In this document: in pieces, positions 13,811 to 19,290 of the stretch
How the letters are laid out: each line of letters opens with the position of its first letter
Numbering within the stretch: position 1 is the stretch's first letter
Virus record (IMG/VR): IMGVR_UViG_2531839129_000021
DNA from: a virus
Taxonomy: Duplodnaviria; Heunggongvirae; Uroviricota; Caudoviricetes
DNA: 39,463 bases
Strand: one strand, 5' to 3'
The notes under the pieces: generated by a model
What the model was told of the DNA's origin: nothing
Databases searched by the model: none
The model's input: only the letters and a program-made list of their open reading frames with translations
Position numbers and translations under genes: made by a program

Positions 13811-14414
13811 ACCAGCGCGAAGACGATGTAAAAACGATGAATGTCGGGAATGGTTTCACCCTGCATTCGCTAATCAGTGGTGGTGCTCTCCAGAGTGTGG
13901 AACCAAGATAGCACTCGAACGACGAAGCAAAGAACGCGAAAAAGCGGAAAAGGTAGCAGAGAAGAAACGACGACGAGAGGAGCAGAAACAGAAAGATAAA
14001 CTTAAGATTCGAAAACTCGCCTTAAAGCCCCGCAGTTACTGGATTAAACAAGCCCAACAAGCCGTAAACGCCTTCATCAGAGAAAGAGACCGCGACTTAC
14101 CATGTATCTCGTGCGGAACGCTCACGTCTGCTCAGTGGGATGCCGGGCATTACCGGACAACTGCTGCGGCGCCTCAACTCCGATTTGATGAACGCAATAT
14201 TCACAAGCAATGCGTGGTATGCAACCAACATAAAAGCGGAAATCTCGTTCCGTATCGCGTCGAACTGATTAACCGCATCGGGCAGGAAGCAGTAGACGAA
14301 ATCGAATCAAACCATAACCGCCATCGCTGGACTGTCGAAGAGTGCAGGGCCATCAAGGCGGAGTATCAACAGAAACTTAAAAAACTGCGAAACAGCAGAA
14401 GTGAGGCTGCATGA
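13800..14414 (+). CDS. ninG: NinG (Rap; Holliday-junction/branched-DNA endonuclease)
   Basis: 204-aa [37 protein letters not shown]... recognised as lambda NinG. Confidence 0.85.
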
Positions 14415-15082
14415 ATATCTACGAAAGAATTGATGGCAGCAAATACCGAAATATTTGGGTAGTTGGCGATCTGCACGGATGCTACACGAACCTGATGAAC
14501 AAACTGGATACGATTGGATTCGACAACAAAAAAGACCTGCTTATCTCGGTGGGCGATTTGGTTGATCGTGGTGCAGAGAACGTTGAATGCCTGGAATTAA
14601 TCACATTCCCCTGGTTCAGAGCTGTACGTGGAAACCATGAGCACATGATGATTGATGGCTTATCAGAGCGTGGAAACGTTAATCACTGGCTGCTTAATGG
14701 CGGTGTCTGGTTCTTCAATCTCGATTACGACAAAGAGATTCTGGCTAAAGCTCTTGCCCATAAAGCAGAAGAACTTCCGTTAATCATCGAACTGGTGAGC
14801 AAAGATAAAAAATATGTCATTTGCCACGCCGATTATCCTTGTAACGAATACGAATTTGGAAAGCCAGTTGATCCTCAGCAGGTAATCTGGAACCGCGAAC
14901 GAATCGGCAACTCACAAGACGGGATCGTGAAAGAAATTAAAGGCGCGGACACGTTCATCTTTGGTCATACGCCAGCAGTGAAACCACTCAAATTTGCCAA
15001 CCAGATGTATATCGATACTGGGGCAGTGTTCTGCGGAAATCTCACATTGATTCAGGTACAGGGAGAAGGCGCGTGGGCATAA
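14411..15082 (+). CDS. ninI: NinI, Ser/Thr protein phosphatase (metallophosphoesterase)
   Basis: 223-aa ORF with GDLHG, GDLVDRG and GNHE metallophosphatase motifs; ATGA overlap with ninG. Confidence 0.85.
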
Positions 15083-15561
15083 GAGAACTAAACCTCACCA
15101 AAGAACAGCATGAGTGGCTGAATGGCTGGCTTGAACTGTGGGGCGCATGGGTTTATTCAGGTCGTCTGGAAAAGCGCATGAGCAGCGTAATAGCGAAGTT
15201 CATGGAGAGCGTAGAGCCGGGAAGAGTTATGACAAGGCCAATGTGTAATGATGATGATGGAATGTTGATTTCTCAGGTCGTCGATTCCGTCATGTACATT
15301 GACAAGAAAGCCTTTGGCATCCTCCTCAGCTACTACGCCCACGGCTCTTCCAAGCACGCCATTGCATCTTACTATCATCGCGTCGCAAGACCTCGCAAGA
15401 TGTTATGCCGGGGCGGCGGGCGCATTCAAAAACCATCGCTCGCAACCTGTCGACGGGAAGTTGACGAAATCCTCAATGCCTCGTTGTTTATGATTTACCC
15501 GGTTCTGGATAGTGCGTTTAAAAACCGGAAACGTGTAGAGAAAATTAAACATGTAGCATAG
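15073..15561 (+). CDS. Q: Late-gene antiterminator Q, non-lambda type (probably Q21/Q82-like)
   Basis: 162-aa ORF (GTG start with GGGAGAAGG RBS) between the nin genes and the lysis cassette; no similarity to lambda Q but contains an ELWGAWV segment resembling other Q families; assignment rests mainly on position. Confidence 0.55.
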
Positions 15562-15565
15562 AACG

Positions 15566-15650
15566 TGTTGACATCATTGAGCAAATGAGCAACACTATTC
15601 GCATAAGCTGCCGTTAGTGACTCTTAAGTTGCAACGGTGGCTTTTTTTAT
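15566..15650 (+). promoter_or_regulatory. Candidate late promoter pR'/qut region with tR'-like terminator
   Basis: TTGACA at 15568-15573 immediately after Q; weak -10; short stem (CCGTT/AACGG) followed by a T7 run at 15642-15648. Confidence 0.3.
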
Positions 15651-15652
15651 TT

Positions 15653-15727
15653 GGGTCAGTCGTATAAAGGTCATTACGGAAGGCTGTTAACCTTCTTATC
15701 GTGGTTCGAGTCCACGCTGTCCCGCCA
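15653..15727 (+). tRNA. tRNA-like gene, anticodon GTT (Asn) by hand folding
   Basis: 75 nt: acceptor GGGTCAG/CTGTCCC (one mismatch), anticodon stem GAAGG/CCTTC, loop CTGTTAA, T-arm CGTGG-TTCGAGT-CCACG, encoded GCCA 3' end. Confidence 0.5.
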
Positions 15728-15732
15728 AATAT

Positions 15733-15808
15733 GCTGGTTTAGCTCCAATGGTAGAGCGGTCGCCTTGTAAGCGAATGGGTAGCGGTTCAAGTCCGTTAAC
15801 CAGCACCA
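15733..15808 (+). tRNA. tRNA-like gene, anticodon TGT (Thr) by hand folding
   Basis: 76 nt: perfect 7-bp acceptor GCTGGTT/AACCAGC, D-arm GCTC-CAATGGTA-GAGC, anticodon loop CTTGTAA, T-loop TTCAAGT, encoded ACCA 3' end. Confidence 0.55.
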
Positions 15809-15926
15809 TAACTGAGCCGTAGCCACTGGATGTCCTGAATTCATCAGTGATAGTTATGCTGCGGTCTTCTTTTTCTCCCTTCCCAATATAAGAACTACGC
15901 AATCCGTTACTGGCGGAGGCGTTGCT

Positions 15927-16142
15927 ATGAAATCAATGGACAAAATCTCAACTGGCATTGCCTACGGAACATCCGCTGGTAGTGCGGGATACTGGTTTTT
16001 GCAGTGGTTGGATCAGGTCAGTCCATCACAGTGGGCTGCGATTGGGATGCTTGGAAGCCTTGTGTTGGGCTTTCTCACCTATCTGACAAATCTGTACTTC
16101 AAAATCAGAGAAGACAGAAGAAAGGCTGCGAGAGGTGAATAA
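15927..16142 (+). CDS. S: Pinholin S21 type with dual start (antiholin from 15927, holin from 15936)
   Basis: 71-aa [74 protein letters not shown] recognised as phage 21 S; two transmembrane segments; Met-Lys-Ser-Met dual-start motif. Confidence 0.85.
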
Positions 16143-16639
16143 TGCCTCCATCATTACGAAAAGCCGTTGCTGCGGCTATTGGTGGCGGGGCTATTGCTAT
16201 AGCATCTGTGTTAATCACTGGCCCAAGTGGTAACGATGGTCTGGAAGGCGTCAGCTACATACCATATAAAGATATCGTTGGTGTATGGACTGTATGTTAC
16301 GGGCATACCGGAAAAGACATTATGCTCGGTAAAACGTATACCAAAGCAGAATGCAAAGCCCTCCTGAATAAAGACCTTGCCACTGTCGCCAGACAAATTA
16401 ACCCGTACATCAAAGTCGATATACCGGAAACAACGCGCGGCGCTCTTTACTCGTTCGTTTACAACGTTGGTGCTGGAAATTTCAGAACATCGACGCTTCT
16501 TCGCAAAATAAACCAGGGCGATATCAAAGGCGCATGTGATCAGCTACGGCGCTGGACATACGCTGGCGGTAAGCAATGGAAAGGTCTCATGACTCGTCGT
16601 GAGATTGAGCGTGAAGTCTGTTTATGGGGGAAGCAATGA
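16142..16639 (+). CDS. R: SAR endolysin (lysozyme with N-terminal signal-anchor-release domain), R21 type
   Basis: 165-aa ORF with Gly/Ala-rich hydrophobic N-terminus ([18 protein letters not shown]) followed by a lysozyme-like domain; immediately follows the pinholin. Confidence 0.85.
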
Positions 16640-17028
16640 AGATCCACTACAAGATAATTATCTTCGCGTTCGCATTGAGCGTACTGGGCGTCATCGTTTG
16701 GTCAGCAAGCCATTATCACGATAAGTATCAGGCGGAACGGCTACGCGCAGATGCTGCCGAGCAGAACGCCAACGCCGCCGAAGCGATCACCGCCAACGTC
16801 ATTCGGTCTGTGAACATCATCAACGCCATTGCAGAGGCCAACCAGGATGCAAAGAACCAGATCACACTGGAGTCACAGGGAGCCCAAGCAGATATCAAAG
16901 TGGCTATTGAGAATGATGACTGCGCTCATCGGCCTGTGCCTCCTGCAACTGCTCACCGGCTGCGGCAATTCGCGGACAGTTTACGTACCGGTATCGGTAG
17001 TGCCTCTACCGGCAAACCTGACAGCTGA
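16636..17028 (+). CDS. Rz: Spanin inner-membrane subunit (Rz-like)
   Basis: N-terminal TM helix ([16 protein letters not shown]) then a charged coiled-coil-like region; ATG 16636 overlaps the R stop (ATGA) with a GGGGGAAG RBS. Confidence 0.7.
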
Positions 17029-17170
17029 GACGCAACAGCCAGCCATTCCCGAACCGCTGACCTATGGGGCCAGTCTGGAGCTGAATGTTAGCCTGCTATC
17101 GGCGCTGGGTCAGTGCAACATCGATAAGGCTAGTATCAGGAAGATTGAAGAGTCTCGGACCTCTCTGTAG
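16913..17170 (+). CDS. Rz1: Spanin outer-membrane lipoprotein subunit (Rz1-like), overlapping Rz in the +1 frame
   Basis: Signal peptide with lipobox LTGC ([20 protein letters not shown]), proline-rich mature region; starts inside Rz and extends beyond its stop. Confidence 0.65.
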   Translation: MMTALIGLCLLQLLTGCGNSRTVYVPVSVVPLPANLTAETQQPAIPEPLTYGASLELNVSLLSALGQCNIDKASIRKIEESRTSL

Positions 17171-17290
17171 AAGACTATTTTGCTGCCATGAAGAAGCTTT
17201 ATATCTTTGGTCAATACATCGAACAGATCAGATAATTCTTATGTGATTGATGCTATATTTATCCCCTATTTAAACATGGGAGTTACGGAT

Positions 17291-18091
17291 ATGTCTGTCA
17301 GTCAAGATATTTATAAGTCTACACTTAGAGTTGAAAGTGATACTCCAGAGGGAACCTCGGTAGGAACTGCTTTCTGGTTTTGCTTTGTTATGGAAGGTGG
17401 TGAAGATATTGTTCCACTCTTGGTAACTAATAAGCATGTTGTTAACGGGGCAACAGAAGTTAGACTACGTCTAAACATTACCGACAGCGCAAATCCTGAG
17501 ATAAAATTTTATAACCTAACAATTTCAGAGGGGGCAAATGCGTTCATTATGCACCCTGATGATAATGTTGATATATGCATATTGCCTATCGCTGGATTGC
17601 TGAATGAGATGGAGAAAAGTGGCATTAGCCCAGAACTCTTCTTTTTCACAGATCGTCAGATGCGTGGTAACAATTACATTACTCCTGTCGAAGATGTTTA
17701 CATGACAGGATATCCAAATGGATTATGGGATTCTGTAAACAATAGGCCTGTTACCAGGAAAGGCATCACAGCATCATCACCTATGGAAAACTGGAAGGGT
17801 AAGCCTGAATTCCTCATTGATATGGCTTGTTTCGGTGGTTCTAGCGGTTCTCCCGTTTATATAATGAACCAAGGCTCATATGCTACTAATGATGGTATTG
17901 CTATGGGGGAGAGATTAATTTTCCTTGGGTTGTTGTATGCAGGGCCAGTAACGAATGTTAGCGGGAATATTGAAATTATTGACGTACCAACAGTCGCTAC
18001 ACCAGTTGTGCGTTCTGAAATTACAATGAATCTCGGATTTGTTATTAAAGCAGAGAAGCTAAATGACTTTAAGCCTCTCTTGGGGATTTAA
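17291..18091 (+). CDS. Trypsin-like (chymotrypsin-fold) serine protease, cytoplasmic; moron of unknown role
   Basis: 266-aa ORF from ATG 17291 with GGGAG RBS; motifs in catalytic order: His (LVTNKHVV), Asp (HPDDNVDICIL), Ser (GGSSGSPVY); no signal peptide; AT-rich. Confidence 0.6.
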   Translation: MSVSQDIYKSTLRVESDTPEGTSVGTAFWFCFVMEGGEDIVPLLVTNKHVVNGATEVRLRLNITDSANPEIKFYNLTISEGANAFIMHPDDNVDICILPIAGLLNEMEKSGISPELFFFTDRQMRGNNYITPVEDVYMTGYPNGLWDSVNNRPVTRKGITASSPMENWKGKPEFLIDMACFGGSSGSPVYIMNQGSYATNDGIAMGERLIFLGLLYAGPVTNVSGNIEIIDVPTVATPVVRSEITMNLGFVIKAEKLNDFKPLLGI

Positions 18092-18224
18092 CACAAGCCG
18101 CCTCCGGACGGTTTTTTTATTGCTATTACAAAAGCCACTCCATGCCGAGTGGCTTTGATAATGGCTTATACCCTACACGGGATAACTTAACTGATATCCC
18201 AACAAGCGGATAAAGAGGTTCTCA

Positions 18225-18350
18225 ATGTCCGACATCTACCAAATCATGTTAACCACCCAAACAGGCGAAACCTTTACGGGTAAGATGTCACGACGTCAGC
18301 GTGAGCTGGTTAATGGCTTTATGCAGCCGGCTACCGAGATGGGCGAGTAG
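18225..18350 (+). CDS. Hypothetical micro-protein (41 aa)
   Basis: ATG ORF MSDIYQIMLTTQTGETFTGKMSRRQRELVNGFMQPATEMGE preceded by an AAGAGG RBS; no homology recognised. Confidence 0.25.
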   Translation: MSDIYQIMLTTQTGETFTGKMSRRQRELVNGFMQPATEMGE

Positions 18351-18439
18351 AATAACTCCATTAGGAGAATGTGGAACCATTACACTTTGAGCCGTTAACT
18401 GATATTGATAAAGGTAAATAATATCGTGGTTAAGGCTTT

Positions 18440-18712
18440 CTAATAGCCAGCCATTTGCAAAATCACAGTTGCAGCAGCAGCGAAAGCTGCATATGAGTTA
18501 TATTTAGACTGTAACCGCGCAGTTAAGAAAAATTCGTGAAGATCTACATTTTTTTGGGGATCATCAAATGTAATTGCTACAACGGTGCTTCTACCTGTTT
18601 TGACTTTGGCTGTTGCTGATTTGATCCATAACCCAGCCGATAAAAAACCAAAGAAAATTGATAGTGTATGATGGTCAATTAACCAGTTTTTAATTAGTAA
18701 TAAATCACTCAT
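18440..18712 (-). CDS. Hypothetical small membrane protein (90 aa)
   Basis: ATG start at 18712; one hydrophobic helix (LSIFFGFLSAGLWI); AT-rich; occupies the slot where lambda carries bor, but is not Bor-like. Confidence 0.35.
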   Translation of the reverse strand: MSDLLLIKNWLIDHHTLSIFFGFLSAGLWIKSATAKVKTGRSTVVAITFDDPQKNVDLHEFFLTARLQSKYNSYAAFAAAATVILQMAGY

Positions 18713-18736
18713 TTTCAATCCAATTGAGACTTTGCC

Positions 18737-19288
18737 ATGGCACTCACCGACAAACAAGAAATGTTCTGTCGCGAGTACCTCATCGATTTAAACGCCACAC
18801 AAGCGGCTATTCGGGCGGGGTACAGCGCAAAGACAGCCAACCGTACTGCGTCCGAAAACATGTCAAAACCTGACATCAAGTTAAGAATCGCTGAACTGAA
18901 AGCGCAACGCAATGATCTTGTTGGTATTAATGCAGAATATGTACTTAATCGCCTTCTTGAAATCGACCAGATGGATGTGCTTGACATTCTCCTGCAAAAC
19001 GGTGAGCTAAAACCCATTAAAGACTGGCCTAAGGTATGGCGCACAACGCTATCAGGAATGGATGTCGTGGAGATGGTATCCGCAGATAGCGCCGCACTTC
19101 TGAAGAAAATCAAATGGCCTGATAAGGTTAAAAATCTTGAGTTGCTTGGGCGTCATGTTTCTGTTCAGGCGTTTAAAGACAATGTCAAAAATGAAGTGAC
19201 TGGCGCTGATGGAGGACCAGTCAGAACAGAAATTACCAACTTAACGCCGGAGCAGGCTGCAGAGGCGTATAGAAAAATGATGGGCTAA
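18737..19288 (+). CDS. Terminase small subunit
   Basis: 183-aa [37 protein letters not shown]..., the characteristic N-terminus of small terminase subunits; directly upstream of the large subunit. Confidence 0.7.
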
Positions 19289-19290
19289 GT

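What the first reader, a model, noticed from the sequence alone, without database searches (positions are those of the whole stretch)
17171..18091. AT-rich moron encoding a stand-alone cytoplasmic trypsin-like serine protease between the spanin genes and the terminase
A 266-aa ORF carries His (LVTNKHVV), Asp (HPDDNVDICIL) and Ser (GGSSGSPVY) motifs in the order expected for a chymotrypsin-fold peptidase, with no signal peptide, so it would act in the cytoplasm. The segment is visibly AT-rich compared with the flanking lysis and terminase genes, has its own RBS (GGGAG) and promoter-like upstream sequence, and is followed by a T7 tract. It sits in the Rz-to-terminase slot where lambdoid phages carry accessory genes such as bor. 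A cytoplasmic protease with no partner gene in this position is not part of the lysis or packaging machinery. A single-gene abortive-infection or exclusion function is a reasonable hypothesis, but I cannot assign it to a named family.
Basis: partly seen in the sequence, partly recalled or inferred. Interest (0 to 1): 0.75.

Follow-up and report, generated by a model that had tools for sequence, protein, structure and literature searches.

The report
Prophage cargo gene: stand-alone cytoplasmic serine protease
A prophage carries, between its lysis and DNA-packaging genes, an extra AT-rich gene for a small cytoplasmic trypsin-fold protease; the gene belongs to a large catalogued family (PADLOC PDC-S45) that is suspected of defending bacteria against other phages, but nobody has tested that.

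Summary

The protein matches PADLOC PDC-S45 over its full length (E=7.5e-100), PHROG 7688 and Pfam Trypsin_2. PDC-S45 is one of 145 untested "phage defence candidates".

The gene is accessory cargo. A near-isogenic E. coli prophage (99% and 98% identical flanks) lacks it. Only 1 of 5,426 complete E. coli genomes has a homologue. Homologues of 44-97% identity sit next to the terminase genes in prophages with unrelated lysis, terminase and head modules. Others lie in a nin region, a prophage remnant, a TIR-caspase island and plasmids. No neighbouring gene is conserved.

The most likely function is single-gene protection of the lysogen by proteolysis, which is inferred and not shown. It is a new member of a known candidate family and of moderate interest.

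The parts
17171..17290 (+). AT-rich intergenic leader (GC 0.33) between the Rz1 stop codon and the protease start. It holds the ribosome-binding site GGGAG (17278-17282) and one weak sigma-70-like match (TGGTCA-17-GATAAT, 17208-17236).
   Evidence: The promoter match is at chance level (5 found, 4.8 expected from shuffles). The leader is about 95% identical in the Salmonella copy.
17291..18091 (+). Gene for a 266-aa stand-alone cytoplasmic chymotrypsin-fold (clan PA, S1-like) serine endopeptidase. Catalytic codons: His49 17435-17437, Asp94 17570-17572, Ser185 17843-17845. Member of PADLOC PDC-S45, PHROG 7688 and Pfam Trypsin_2.
18095..18118 (+). Terminator-like hairpin (GCCGCC...GGACGG) followed by a T7 run (18112-18118), starting 4 nt after the stop codon.
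   Evidence: The Salmonella (L001) and Serratia (L010) copies carry the same element with perfect CCGCC/GGCGG-type stems.
16641..18120 (+). Mosaic module (Rz, Rz1 and the protease gene) that replaces an 881-bp 'Rz + 50-aa ORF' segment of a near-isogenic E. coli prophage. It defines the variable slot.
   Evidence: Against E. coli ERP001 (L026), blastn gives 99.2% identity over 15060-16640, no homology over 16641-18120, 91% over 18121-18239 and 97.8% over 18737-19912. Window 16101-18214 is a single block 94-95% identical to Salmonella P22-like prophages.
18113..18239 (+). Conserved linker of about 100 nt that forms the right-hand boundary of the slot. It contains a perfect 10-bp hairpin at 18131-18156.
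   Evidence: It is 88-95% identical in about 97 phage records and in many E. coli prophages, always upstream of a DUF2560-type gene. No Rfam family matches it.

Best explanation
The gene encodes a catalytically competent, cytoplasmic, single-domain serine endopeptidase of the chymotrypsin fold. It is mobile accessory cargo (a moron) in the hypervariable junction between the lysis cassette and the terminase genes of a lambdoid prophage.

Shown:
- The fold, the triad and the absence of export signals.
- Membership of the catalogued single-gene candidate family PDC-S45.
- Presence/absence polymorphism between near-identical prophages.
- Spread among unrelated phage backbones, plasmids and islands without any conserved partner gene.

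Inferred:
- The gene benefits the lysogen by blocking other phages.
- The protein is a bare protease domain with no sensor domain, so recognition must lie in its substrate cleft. One option is that it cleaves a specific protein of the invading phage directly. The other is that a phage protein completes the substrate complex and licenses cleavage of an essential host protein. The second is an abortive-infection mechanism like that of the e14 prophage protease Lit, which cuts EF-Tu only in the presence of the T4 Gol peptide (from my own knowledge).
- High specificity or latency would explain why an unpartnered cytoplasmic protease is tolerated.
- The gene lies on the late-operon strand, so Q-antiterminated transcription would also express it during the phage's own lytic growth.
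For: Enzyme:
- Trypsin_2 match.
- H49/D94/S185 and the GxSGxP motif are invariant across 57 homologues, as is a strongly conserved GYPNGLWD..NN..R.G loop.
- A profile search aligns the TNKH, D and GGxSGSP motifs to the triad of the Esp/V8 proteases.

Cytoplasmic location: no hydrophobic segment.

Defence link:
- Full-length PDC-S45 hit, E=7.5e-100. PDC systems were derived from genes embedded in BREX, DISARM or type I R-M loci.
- In one outside study 4 of 8 other PDC/HEC candidates protected when tested.
- One homologue lies in an integrase/transposase island beside a TIR-caspase gene.
- Another is the cargo of a 13-kb Acinetobacter plasmid that also carries an R-M system.
- Another is kept in a Serratia prophage remnant that has lost its structural genes.

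Accessory, not core:
- Absent from a prophage with 99% and 98% identical flanks.
- Only 1 of 5,426 complete E. coli genomes has a homologue, although 4,291 carry matches to the flanking sequences.
- The ORF is always more AT-rich than its surroundings in Enterobacterales (0.33-0.41 against 0.40-0.53).
- Window versus Salmonella copy gives omega 0.25.

Single gene: neighbours differ in every context and the downstream genes are unrelated to each other.
Against: - No member of PDC-S45 has been tested. I found no paper reporting a phenotype.
- An own promoter is not demonstrable. In Morganella and Providencia prophages the gene follows the upstream gene by only 33-37 nt, so those copies are probably transcribed only with phage operons. 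That fits a function in the lytic cycle as well as a lysogen function.
- In three Bacteroidota-like contigs the gene sits among housekeeping genes, with neither phage nor defence neighbours.
Confidence: 0.5

Rival explanations
1. The protease serves the phage's own lytic cycle. It would be made from the late transcript and cut host proteins, for example host immune or stress proteins (counter-defence), much as viral 3C-type proteases do.
Against: - The family was catalogued from genes embedded inside host defence loci.
- It occurs on plasmids, in an island with a TIR-caspase gene and as a solitary chromosomal gene.
- It is retained in a prophage remnant with no virion genes.
- It is absent from 50,697 sequenced phage genomes except for one truncated copy in SfII.
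- A hairpin plus T7 tract directly after the gene fits the architecture of a self-contained moron.
Confidence: 0.25
2. The gene is a lysogenic-conversion or host-fitness factor unrelated to phages. A specific intracellular protease would remodel a host regulator, a toxin-antitoxin pair or a stress pathway, or would stabilise the mobile element by addiction.
For: Carriage on small plasmids next to recombinases. Solitary chromosomal copies among housekeeping genes in Bacteroidota-like contigs. The closest solved structures are the HtrA/Deg quality-control proteases.
Against: There is no PDZ domain and no export signal, so it is not an HtrA-type quality-control enzyme. No adjacent antitoxin-like gene is conserved. 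Its rarity and patchy distribution on mobile elements are typical of conflict genes.
Confidence: 0.15
3. The gene is an accessory component of lysis or DNA packaging, for example processing of spanins, endolysin or terminase. It would travel with the lysis cassette because it works with it.
For: In this window and in Salmonella it forms one 94-95% identical block with the lysozyme, Rz and Rz1 genes. Its position at the junction of the lysis and terminase genes recurs.
Against: - The adjacent lysis genes are of unrelated types (lysozyme against GH19 endolysin, different holins and spanins), and the terminases are of at least five types.
- The Providencia copy lies in the nin region, far from both.
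- A near-isogenic prophage and thousands of E. coli prophages with the same lysozyme lack it.
- P22-like phages lyse and package without it.
Confidence: 0.04

Closest known systems
PADLOC 'phage defence candidate' PDC-S45 (Payne et al. 2024, bioRxiv 10.1101/2024.01.29.577857); the same proteins form PHROG 7688 and are named 'S1 family peptidase' by NCBI
   Same: Full-length HMM match (E=7.5e-100, residues 2-264 on profile positions 15-283 of 293), single-gene architecture, about 265 aa, Trypsin_2 domain.
   Different: Nothing detectable; this gene is a member. The family has no demonstrated function, being one of '145 untested phage defence candidates'. A PDC-S45 hit has also been reported in a Sinorhizobium prophage.
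Trypsin-MBL effector module of Hachiman, AVAST/Avs1, Lamassu and DRT/UG9 systems (PMC12799240; bioRxiv 10.1101/2025.09.03.673762; PMC9226505)
   Same: A Trypsin_2-type cytoplasmic serine protease used in anti-phage immunity. The window protein gives weak hits to the protease parts of the PADLOC RT-Protease_XI model (E=2.7e-6) and LmuA model (E=7e-4).
   Different: In that module the protease is fused to a sensor protein (HamA, Avs1a, LmuA or a reverse transcriptase) and works by cleaving and activating an MBL-fold nuclease proenzyme encoded just upstream. Here there is no fusion and no MBL gene next to the protease. The neighbours are spanins, two small ORFs and TerS.
Lit protease of the E. 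coli e14 prophage (my own knowledge, not tested here)
   Same: A prophage-encoded, cytoplasmic, single-gene protease with no partner. It is the only well-studied precedent for immunity based on a protease alone: abortive infection by cleavage of EF-Tu, triggered by a late phage peptide.
   Different: Lit is a zinc metalloprotease of an unrelated fold. No sequence or structural relationship exists, and the PADLOC scan gave no Lit hit. The resemblance is in predicted logic only.
HtrA/Deg (S1C) and V8/Esp glutamyl endopeptidase (S1B) families
   Different: Those enzymes are exported (periplasmic or secreted). HtrA proteins carry PDZ domains and V8/Esp carry pro-peptides. This protein has no signal peptide, PDZ domain or pro-peptide, shares only 15-21% identity, and has a longer beta-hairpin (residues 188-217) and a conserved flexible loop (225-234).
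Lambdoid morons in the late region, such as lambda bor (my own knowledge of the moron concept of Juhala/Hendrix)
   Same: An extra gene of deviant GC content lies between conserved late genes. It is absent from close relatives and followed by a terminator-like hairpin. The same slot holds other cargo in other phages: KilA-N in BIS08P22, DUF1398 and YlcI in E. coli STE15.
   Different: bor is on the opposite strand and has a proven promoter active in the lysogen. This gene is co-oriented with the late operon and its promoter is unproven.

Membership tests
Clan PA / S1-type chymotrypsin-fold serine peptidase | Double beta-barrel chymotrypsin fold | tested here: met
Clan PA / S1-type chymotrypsin-fold serine peptidase | His-Asp-Ser triad in that order, with a GxSGxP motif around the serine | tested here: met
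   H49, D94 and S185 (G183-S184-S185-G186-S187-P188) are invariant in 57 sequences. They align to the triad motifs of Esp. The 3-D geometry of the triad was not measured.
Clan PA / S1-type chymotrypsin-fold serine peptidase | Peptide-bond hydrolysis | not testable with these tools
   Needs purified protein and substrates.
PADLOC PDC-S45 (single-gene phage defence candidate) | Full-length match to the family HMM PDLC05022 | tested here: met
   E=7.5e-100, 331.6 bits, residues 2-264 on profile positions 15-283 of 293.
PADLOC PDC-S45 (single-gene phage defence candidate) | Stand-alone gene with no obligatory partner | tested here: met
   About 15 contexts have no shared neighbour. Downstream genes are unrelated to each other. 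The window's small neighbouring ORFs are absent from the other loci.
PADLOC PDC-S45 (single-gene phage defence candidate) | Association with defence loci or mobile-element cargo regions | tested here: inconclusive
   Supporting: an island with a TIR-caspase gene, a plasmid with an R-M system, prophage cargo slots, and the origin of the family by embedding in defence loci. Not supporting: three solitary chromosomal contexts. The paper's supplements did not yield the PDC-S45 record.
PADLOC PDC-S45 (single-gene phage defence candidate) | Anti-phage activity | not testable with these tools
   Untested by anyone according to the source and my literature searches.
Trypsin-MBL defence effector module | Adjacent MBL-fold nuclease proenzyme | tested here: not met
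   The neighbours are Rz/Rz1, a 41-aa ORF, a 90-aa ORF and TerS. Scans of the two small ORFs and TerS gave no MBL hit; Rz hit only DUF2570. None is seen next to homologues either.
Trypsin-MBL defence effector module | Protease fused to a sensor or enzyme (HamA, Avs1, LmuA, reverse transcriptase) | tested here: not met
   The 266-aa protein is the protease domain only. Nearly all of the 150 best cluster representatives listed are 265-310 aa.
HtrA/DegP (S1C) quality-control proteases | Signal peptide or membrane anchor plus one or more C-terminal PDZ domains | tested here: not met
   No PDZ hit. NCBIfam degP_htrA score 10.5 bits against a cut-off of 416. No hydrophobic N-terminus.
Moron (autonomous extra gene in a phage late region) | Present or absent between conserved flanks in close relatives, with deviant base composition | tested here: met
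   Comparison with the ERP001 prophage. GC 0.40 against 0.51-0.53. 0 of 4,291 E. coli genomes with flank matches contain the gene in this form.
Moron (autonomous extra gene in a phage late region) | Own promoter and own terminator | tested here: inconclusive
   A terminator-like hairpin plus T7 is present and recurs in Salmonella and Serratia. Promoter matches are at chance level.

The most novel reading that the evidence does not exclude
Probability: 0.3. Interest if true: 0.75.

Novelty: new member of a known kind. Interest (0 to 1): 0.45.

Why it matters
If PDC-S45 proteins do protect against phages, they would be among the simplest immune proteins known. Each is a single protease domain, so specificity, triggering and self-tolerance must all be encoded in one small fold. 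That contrasts with the recently described trypsin-MBL modules, which need a sensor fusion and a nuclease proenzyme.

The family is large: about 2,000 clusters at 50% identity, spread across Proteobacteria, Firmicutes, Actinobacteria and Bacteroidota, in prophages and on plasmids. A validated function would therefore annotate thousands of 'S1 family peptidase' genes.

This locus is a convenient test case. A natural near-isogenic prophage lacks the gene, and a 97%-identical copy exists in Salmonella P22-like prophages. The finding is not a new kind of element, though. The family is already in PADLOC and PHROGs, and cargo genes in this lambdoid slot are expected.

Tried and rejected
- Partner gene. 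I checked whether the 485-aa and 481-aa genes downstream of two homologues are related. They are not (BLASTP E=0.82), and neither hits PADLOC. The window's 90-aa minus-strand ORF and 41-aa ORF are absent from all other loci that carry the protease.
- Trypsin-MBL module. Rejected because there is no MBL gene and no sensor fusion.
- Head-maturation protease. Rejected because the window has its own portal, Mu-F, DUF2213 and capsid module, and P22-like carriers need no such enzyme.
- Sequenced phage genomes. tblastn found no full-length copy in 50,697 records. A second query found only a truncated copy next to an IS911 in Shigella phage SfII. Given how rare the gene is, I do not read this absence as evidence of counter-selection.
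- Fusion partners. N-terminal extensions in six longer family members gave no Pfam domain.
- Literature. Candidate papers on prophage defence concern other proteins: GiPD474 is an ATPase and HepS is unrelated.
- Rfam. No RNA family matches in 15500-19000 apart from two tRNAs.
- Not available: the afdb50 fold library, the predicted model's coordinates (so triad distances were not measured), and the PDC-S45 record in the Payne et al. supplements.

Full report
**1. Observation**

The ORF is real. The ORF listing reports 17207..18091 from a TTG. The biologically supported start is ATG 17291, which lies 8 nt after GGGAG (17278-17282) and gives 266 aa. Most homologues are 265-268 aa. Nucleotide similarity to a 70%-identical E. 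coli copy begins exactly at 17291 and ends at 18091.

These residues are invariant in an alignment of 57 homologues of 41-88% identity.

The N-terminus is polar, and no 19-residue window exceeds a Kyte-Doolittle mean of 1.34. There is therefore no signal peptide or membrane segment.

GC content is 0.402 in the ORF and 0.333 in the 120-nt leader. It is 0.512 in the lysis genes and 0.529 in TerL.

A hairpin (18095-18114) running into a T7 tract (18112-18118) starts four bases after the stop codon.

One part of the observation does not hold statistically: the 'promoter-like' sequence. The scan found a single 9-of-12 match upstream (17208-17236), and the region has no more such matches than shuffled sequence does (5 found, 4.8 expected).

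**2. What the protein is**

- Pfam Trypsin_2: E=1.9e-10.
- PHROG 7688, function unknown: E=1.7e-100.
- PADLOC PDC-S45: E=7.5e-100 over the full length.
- NCBIfam has no specific model. NCBI names the homologues 'S1 family peptidase'.

AlphaFold2 with the 57-sequence alignment gave a confident model (pLDDT 90.1, pTM 0.87). The only disordered stretch is residues 225-234.

- Foldseek against the PDB returned V8/Esp glutamyl endopeptidases, DegP/DegQ/DegS, Rv3671c and FMDV 3C, all at probability 1.0.
- A profile search of PDB sequences aligned the TNKH, D and GGxSGSP motifs with the catalytic residues of Esp.

The 81 residues after Ser185 belong to the second barrel of the canonical fold, with an elongated hairpin and a C-terminal helix. 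They are not a separate domain. The protein is therefore a bare protease domain with no PDZ domain, pro-peptide or sensor.

The family is very large and uniform. It has 1,967 clusters at 50% identity with E<=1e-30, and nearly all members are 265-310 aa. The few longer members have N-terminal extensions with no recognisable domain.

**3. Genomic anatomy**

The window is a lambdoid prophage. The gene order is:
- NinG, a lambda-type phosphatase and Q;
- tRNA-Asn and tRNA-Thr;
- holin, lysozyme and Rz/Rz1;
- the protease gene;
- a 41-aa ORF and a 90-aa minus-strand ORF;
- TerS (Terminase_2), TerL, portal, Mu-F, DUF2213 and the capsid gene.

*A relative that lacks the gene.* The E. coli ERP001 prophage is 99.2% identical over 15060-16640 and 97.8% identical over 18737-19912. 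In place of window 16641-18120 it carries an 881-bp segment with a different Rz and a 50-aa ORF. Homology resumes in a conserved linker of about 100 nt (18121-18239).

*The slot across E. coli.* 4,291 of 5,426 complete E. coli genomes match the flanking sequences. None contains the protease in this form, and only one genome has any homologue, at 67% nucleotide identity.

*Where this copy of the module recurs.* Window 16101-18214 (lysozyme, Rz/Rz1, protease and linker) is a single block 94-95% identical to Salmonella P22-like prophages. Their terminase, portal and coat genes are entirely different from those of the window.

*Other cargo in the slot.* Other phages fill the same slot with a KilA-N gene (BIS08P22), a 50-aa ORF (mEp460), or DUF1398 and YlcI genes (E. 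coli STE15).

The gene is therefore accessory cargo in a recombination-bounded variable slot. It is not part of the lysis or packaging machinery.

**4. Where the homologues live**

| Context | Identity to window protein | Setting |
|---|---|---|
| Salmonella P22-like prophages | 97% | Lysis cassette, then protease, then terminase |
| Klebsiella prophages, four terminase variants | 59% | Lysis cassette, then protease, then terminase |
| Two E. coli prophages | 67-68% | GH19 endolysin upstream; HK97- or P27-type terminase downstream |
| Morganella-type prophages | 41-44% | Directly upstream of TerS, 33-37 nt after the preceding gene |
| Providencia prophage | 43% | nin region between P and Q |
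| Serratia | 58% | Prophage remnant that keeps only lysis genes and the protease |
| Metagenomic island | 43% | Integrase, TIR-caspase gene (PADLOC PDC-S66/caspase hits), HD protein and transposase |
| Three Bacteroidota-like contigs | 43-46% | Solitary gene among housekeeping genes |
| Plasmids of Bacillus, Exiguobacterium, Moraxella, Acinetobacter, Legionella, Arthrobacter and others | <60% | Includes a 13-kb Acinetobacter plasmid that also carries an MvaI/BcnI R-M system |

No neighbouring gene is conserved across these contexts.

In Enterobacterales the ORF is always more AT-rich than its surroundings (0.33-0.41 against 0.40-0.53).

Sequenced phage genomes (50,697 records) contain no intact copy. 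The only hit is a truncated, IS911-adjacent relic in Shigella phage SfII, in the same slot.

**5. What is known about the family**

PDC-S45 is one of 145 'phage defence candidates'. They were derived by 'guilt-by-embedding', that is, from genes nested inside BREX, DISARM and type I R-M loci. The authors explicitly describe them as untested.

I found no experimental test of PDC-S45. One study that tested eight other PDC/HEC candidates found protection for four. One paper reports a PDC-S45 hit in a Sinorhizobium prophage.

Trypsin_2-type proteases have a demonstrated role in immunity as part of trypsin-MBL modules. There the protease is fused to HamA, Avs1a, LmuA or a reverse transcriptase, and it activates an MBL nuclease proenzyme.

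The window protein gives only weak hits to those protease domains (E=2.7e-6 and 7e-4). It has neither the fusion nor the MBL neighbour, so it is not a member of that module.

**6. Mechanism**

*Shown.* The protein has an intact catalytic apparatus on a confidently predicted chymotrypsin fold. It is cytoplasmic, unpartnered, mobile and under purifying selection (omega 0.25 against the Salmonella copy, plus deep conservation of the triad and of a GYPNGLWD..NN..R.G loop).

*Inferred.* It protects the lysogen from other phages by proteolysis. With no sensor domain, discrimination must reside in the substrate cleft. That means either direct cleavage of an invading-phage protein, or Lit-like cleavage of a host factor licensed by a phage protein. 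I put this at about 0.5.

*Main rival (0.25).* The protease serves the carrier phage's own lytic cycle, for example in counter-defence. This is favoured by co-orientation with the late operon, tight upstream spacing in some prophages and the lack of a demonstrable promoter. It is disfavoured by the contexts in plasmids, islands, prophage remnants and defence loci.

*Other rivals.* A phage-independent host-fitness or addiction role (0.15) and a lysis or packaging accessory role (0.04) are less likely. The second is effectively excluded by the natural presence/absence data.

**7. Verdict**

There are two corrections: the family can be named, and the promoter is unproven.

The gene is a new member of a catalogued but functionally untested candidate defence family, sitting in a classical lambdoid cargo slot. 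Interest is moderate. Neither the element type nor the family is new. However, a sensor-less, single-domain protease acting as a complete immune system would be mechanistically novel, and this locus offers a clean natural comparison for testing it.

Noticed in passing
window 18113-18239: A segment of about 100 nt is 88-95% conserved in about 97 phage records (Sf6, HK544, mEp460, P22-like phages) and in many E. coli prophages, always just upstream of a DUF2560-type small gene. It contains a perfect 10-bp hairpin (18131-18156, AAAGCCACTC/GAGTGGCTTT). No Rfam family matches. It acts as the right-hand homology boundary of the variable slot; its own function (terminator, RNA element or recombination linker) is unknown.
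   Followed up: partly
window 18440-18712 (- strand): A 90-aa ORF (PHROG 14357, E=5e-62, GC 0.36) runs convergent to the protease gene and just upstream of TerS. The near-isogenic E. coli ERP001 prophage has a different 78-aa minus-strand ORF at this position. This is therefore a second, independent variable cargo slot, arranged like bor (opposite strand). The ORF is not found next to other PDC-S45 genes.
   Followed up: partly
window 18225-18350 (+ strand): A 41-aa ORF matches only the first 41 of 66 positions of PHROG 6581. Homology to related prophages stops about 15 nt into it (at 18239), so it looks like a truncated or recombinant small gene at a mosaic joint.
   Followed up: no
window 15653-15808: tRNA-Asn (GTT) and tRNA-Thr (TGT) lie between the Q antiterminator gene and the holin gene. 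The same pair occurs in the E. coli ERP001 prophage.
   Followed up: no
L032 (Shigella phage SfII, KC736978.1) 40429-41049: SfII_57 (206 aa, annotated hypothetical) is an N-terminally truncated relative of the protease, 31% identical and lacking the His-bearing half. It lies in the same slot between Rz1 and the HNH/terminase genes, directly beside an IS911 copy. It is probably an inactivated relic and is the only trace of the family in 50,697 phage records.
   Followed up: partly
L020 2602-3759 (metagenome contig, ENA ERZ27253369): A 386-aa TIR plus caspase-like (Peptidase_C14) protein hits PADLOC PDC-S66, caspase and ThsB models. It lies about 3 kb upstream of a PDC-S45 homologue, in an island with an integrase and a transposase.
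   Followed up: no
window 14411-15082: A lambda-type Ser/Thr phosphatase (Pfam Metallophos) lies between NinG and Q. This is ordinary for lambdoid nin regions.
   Followed up: no
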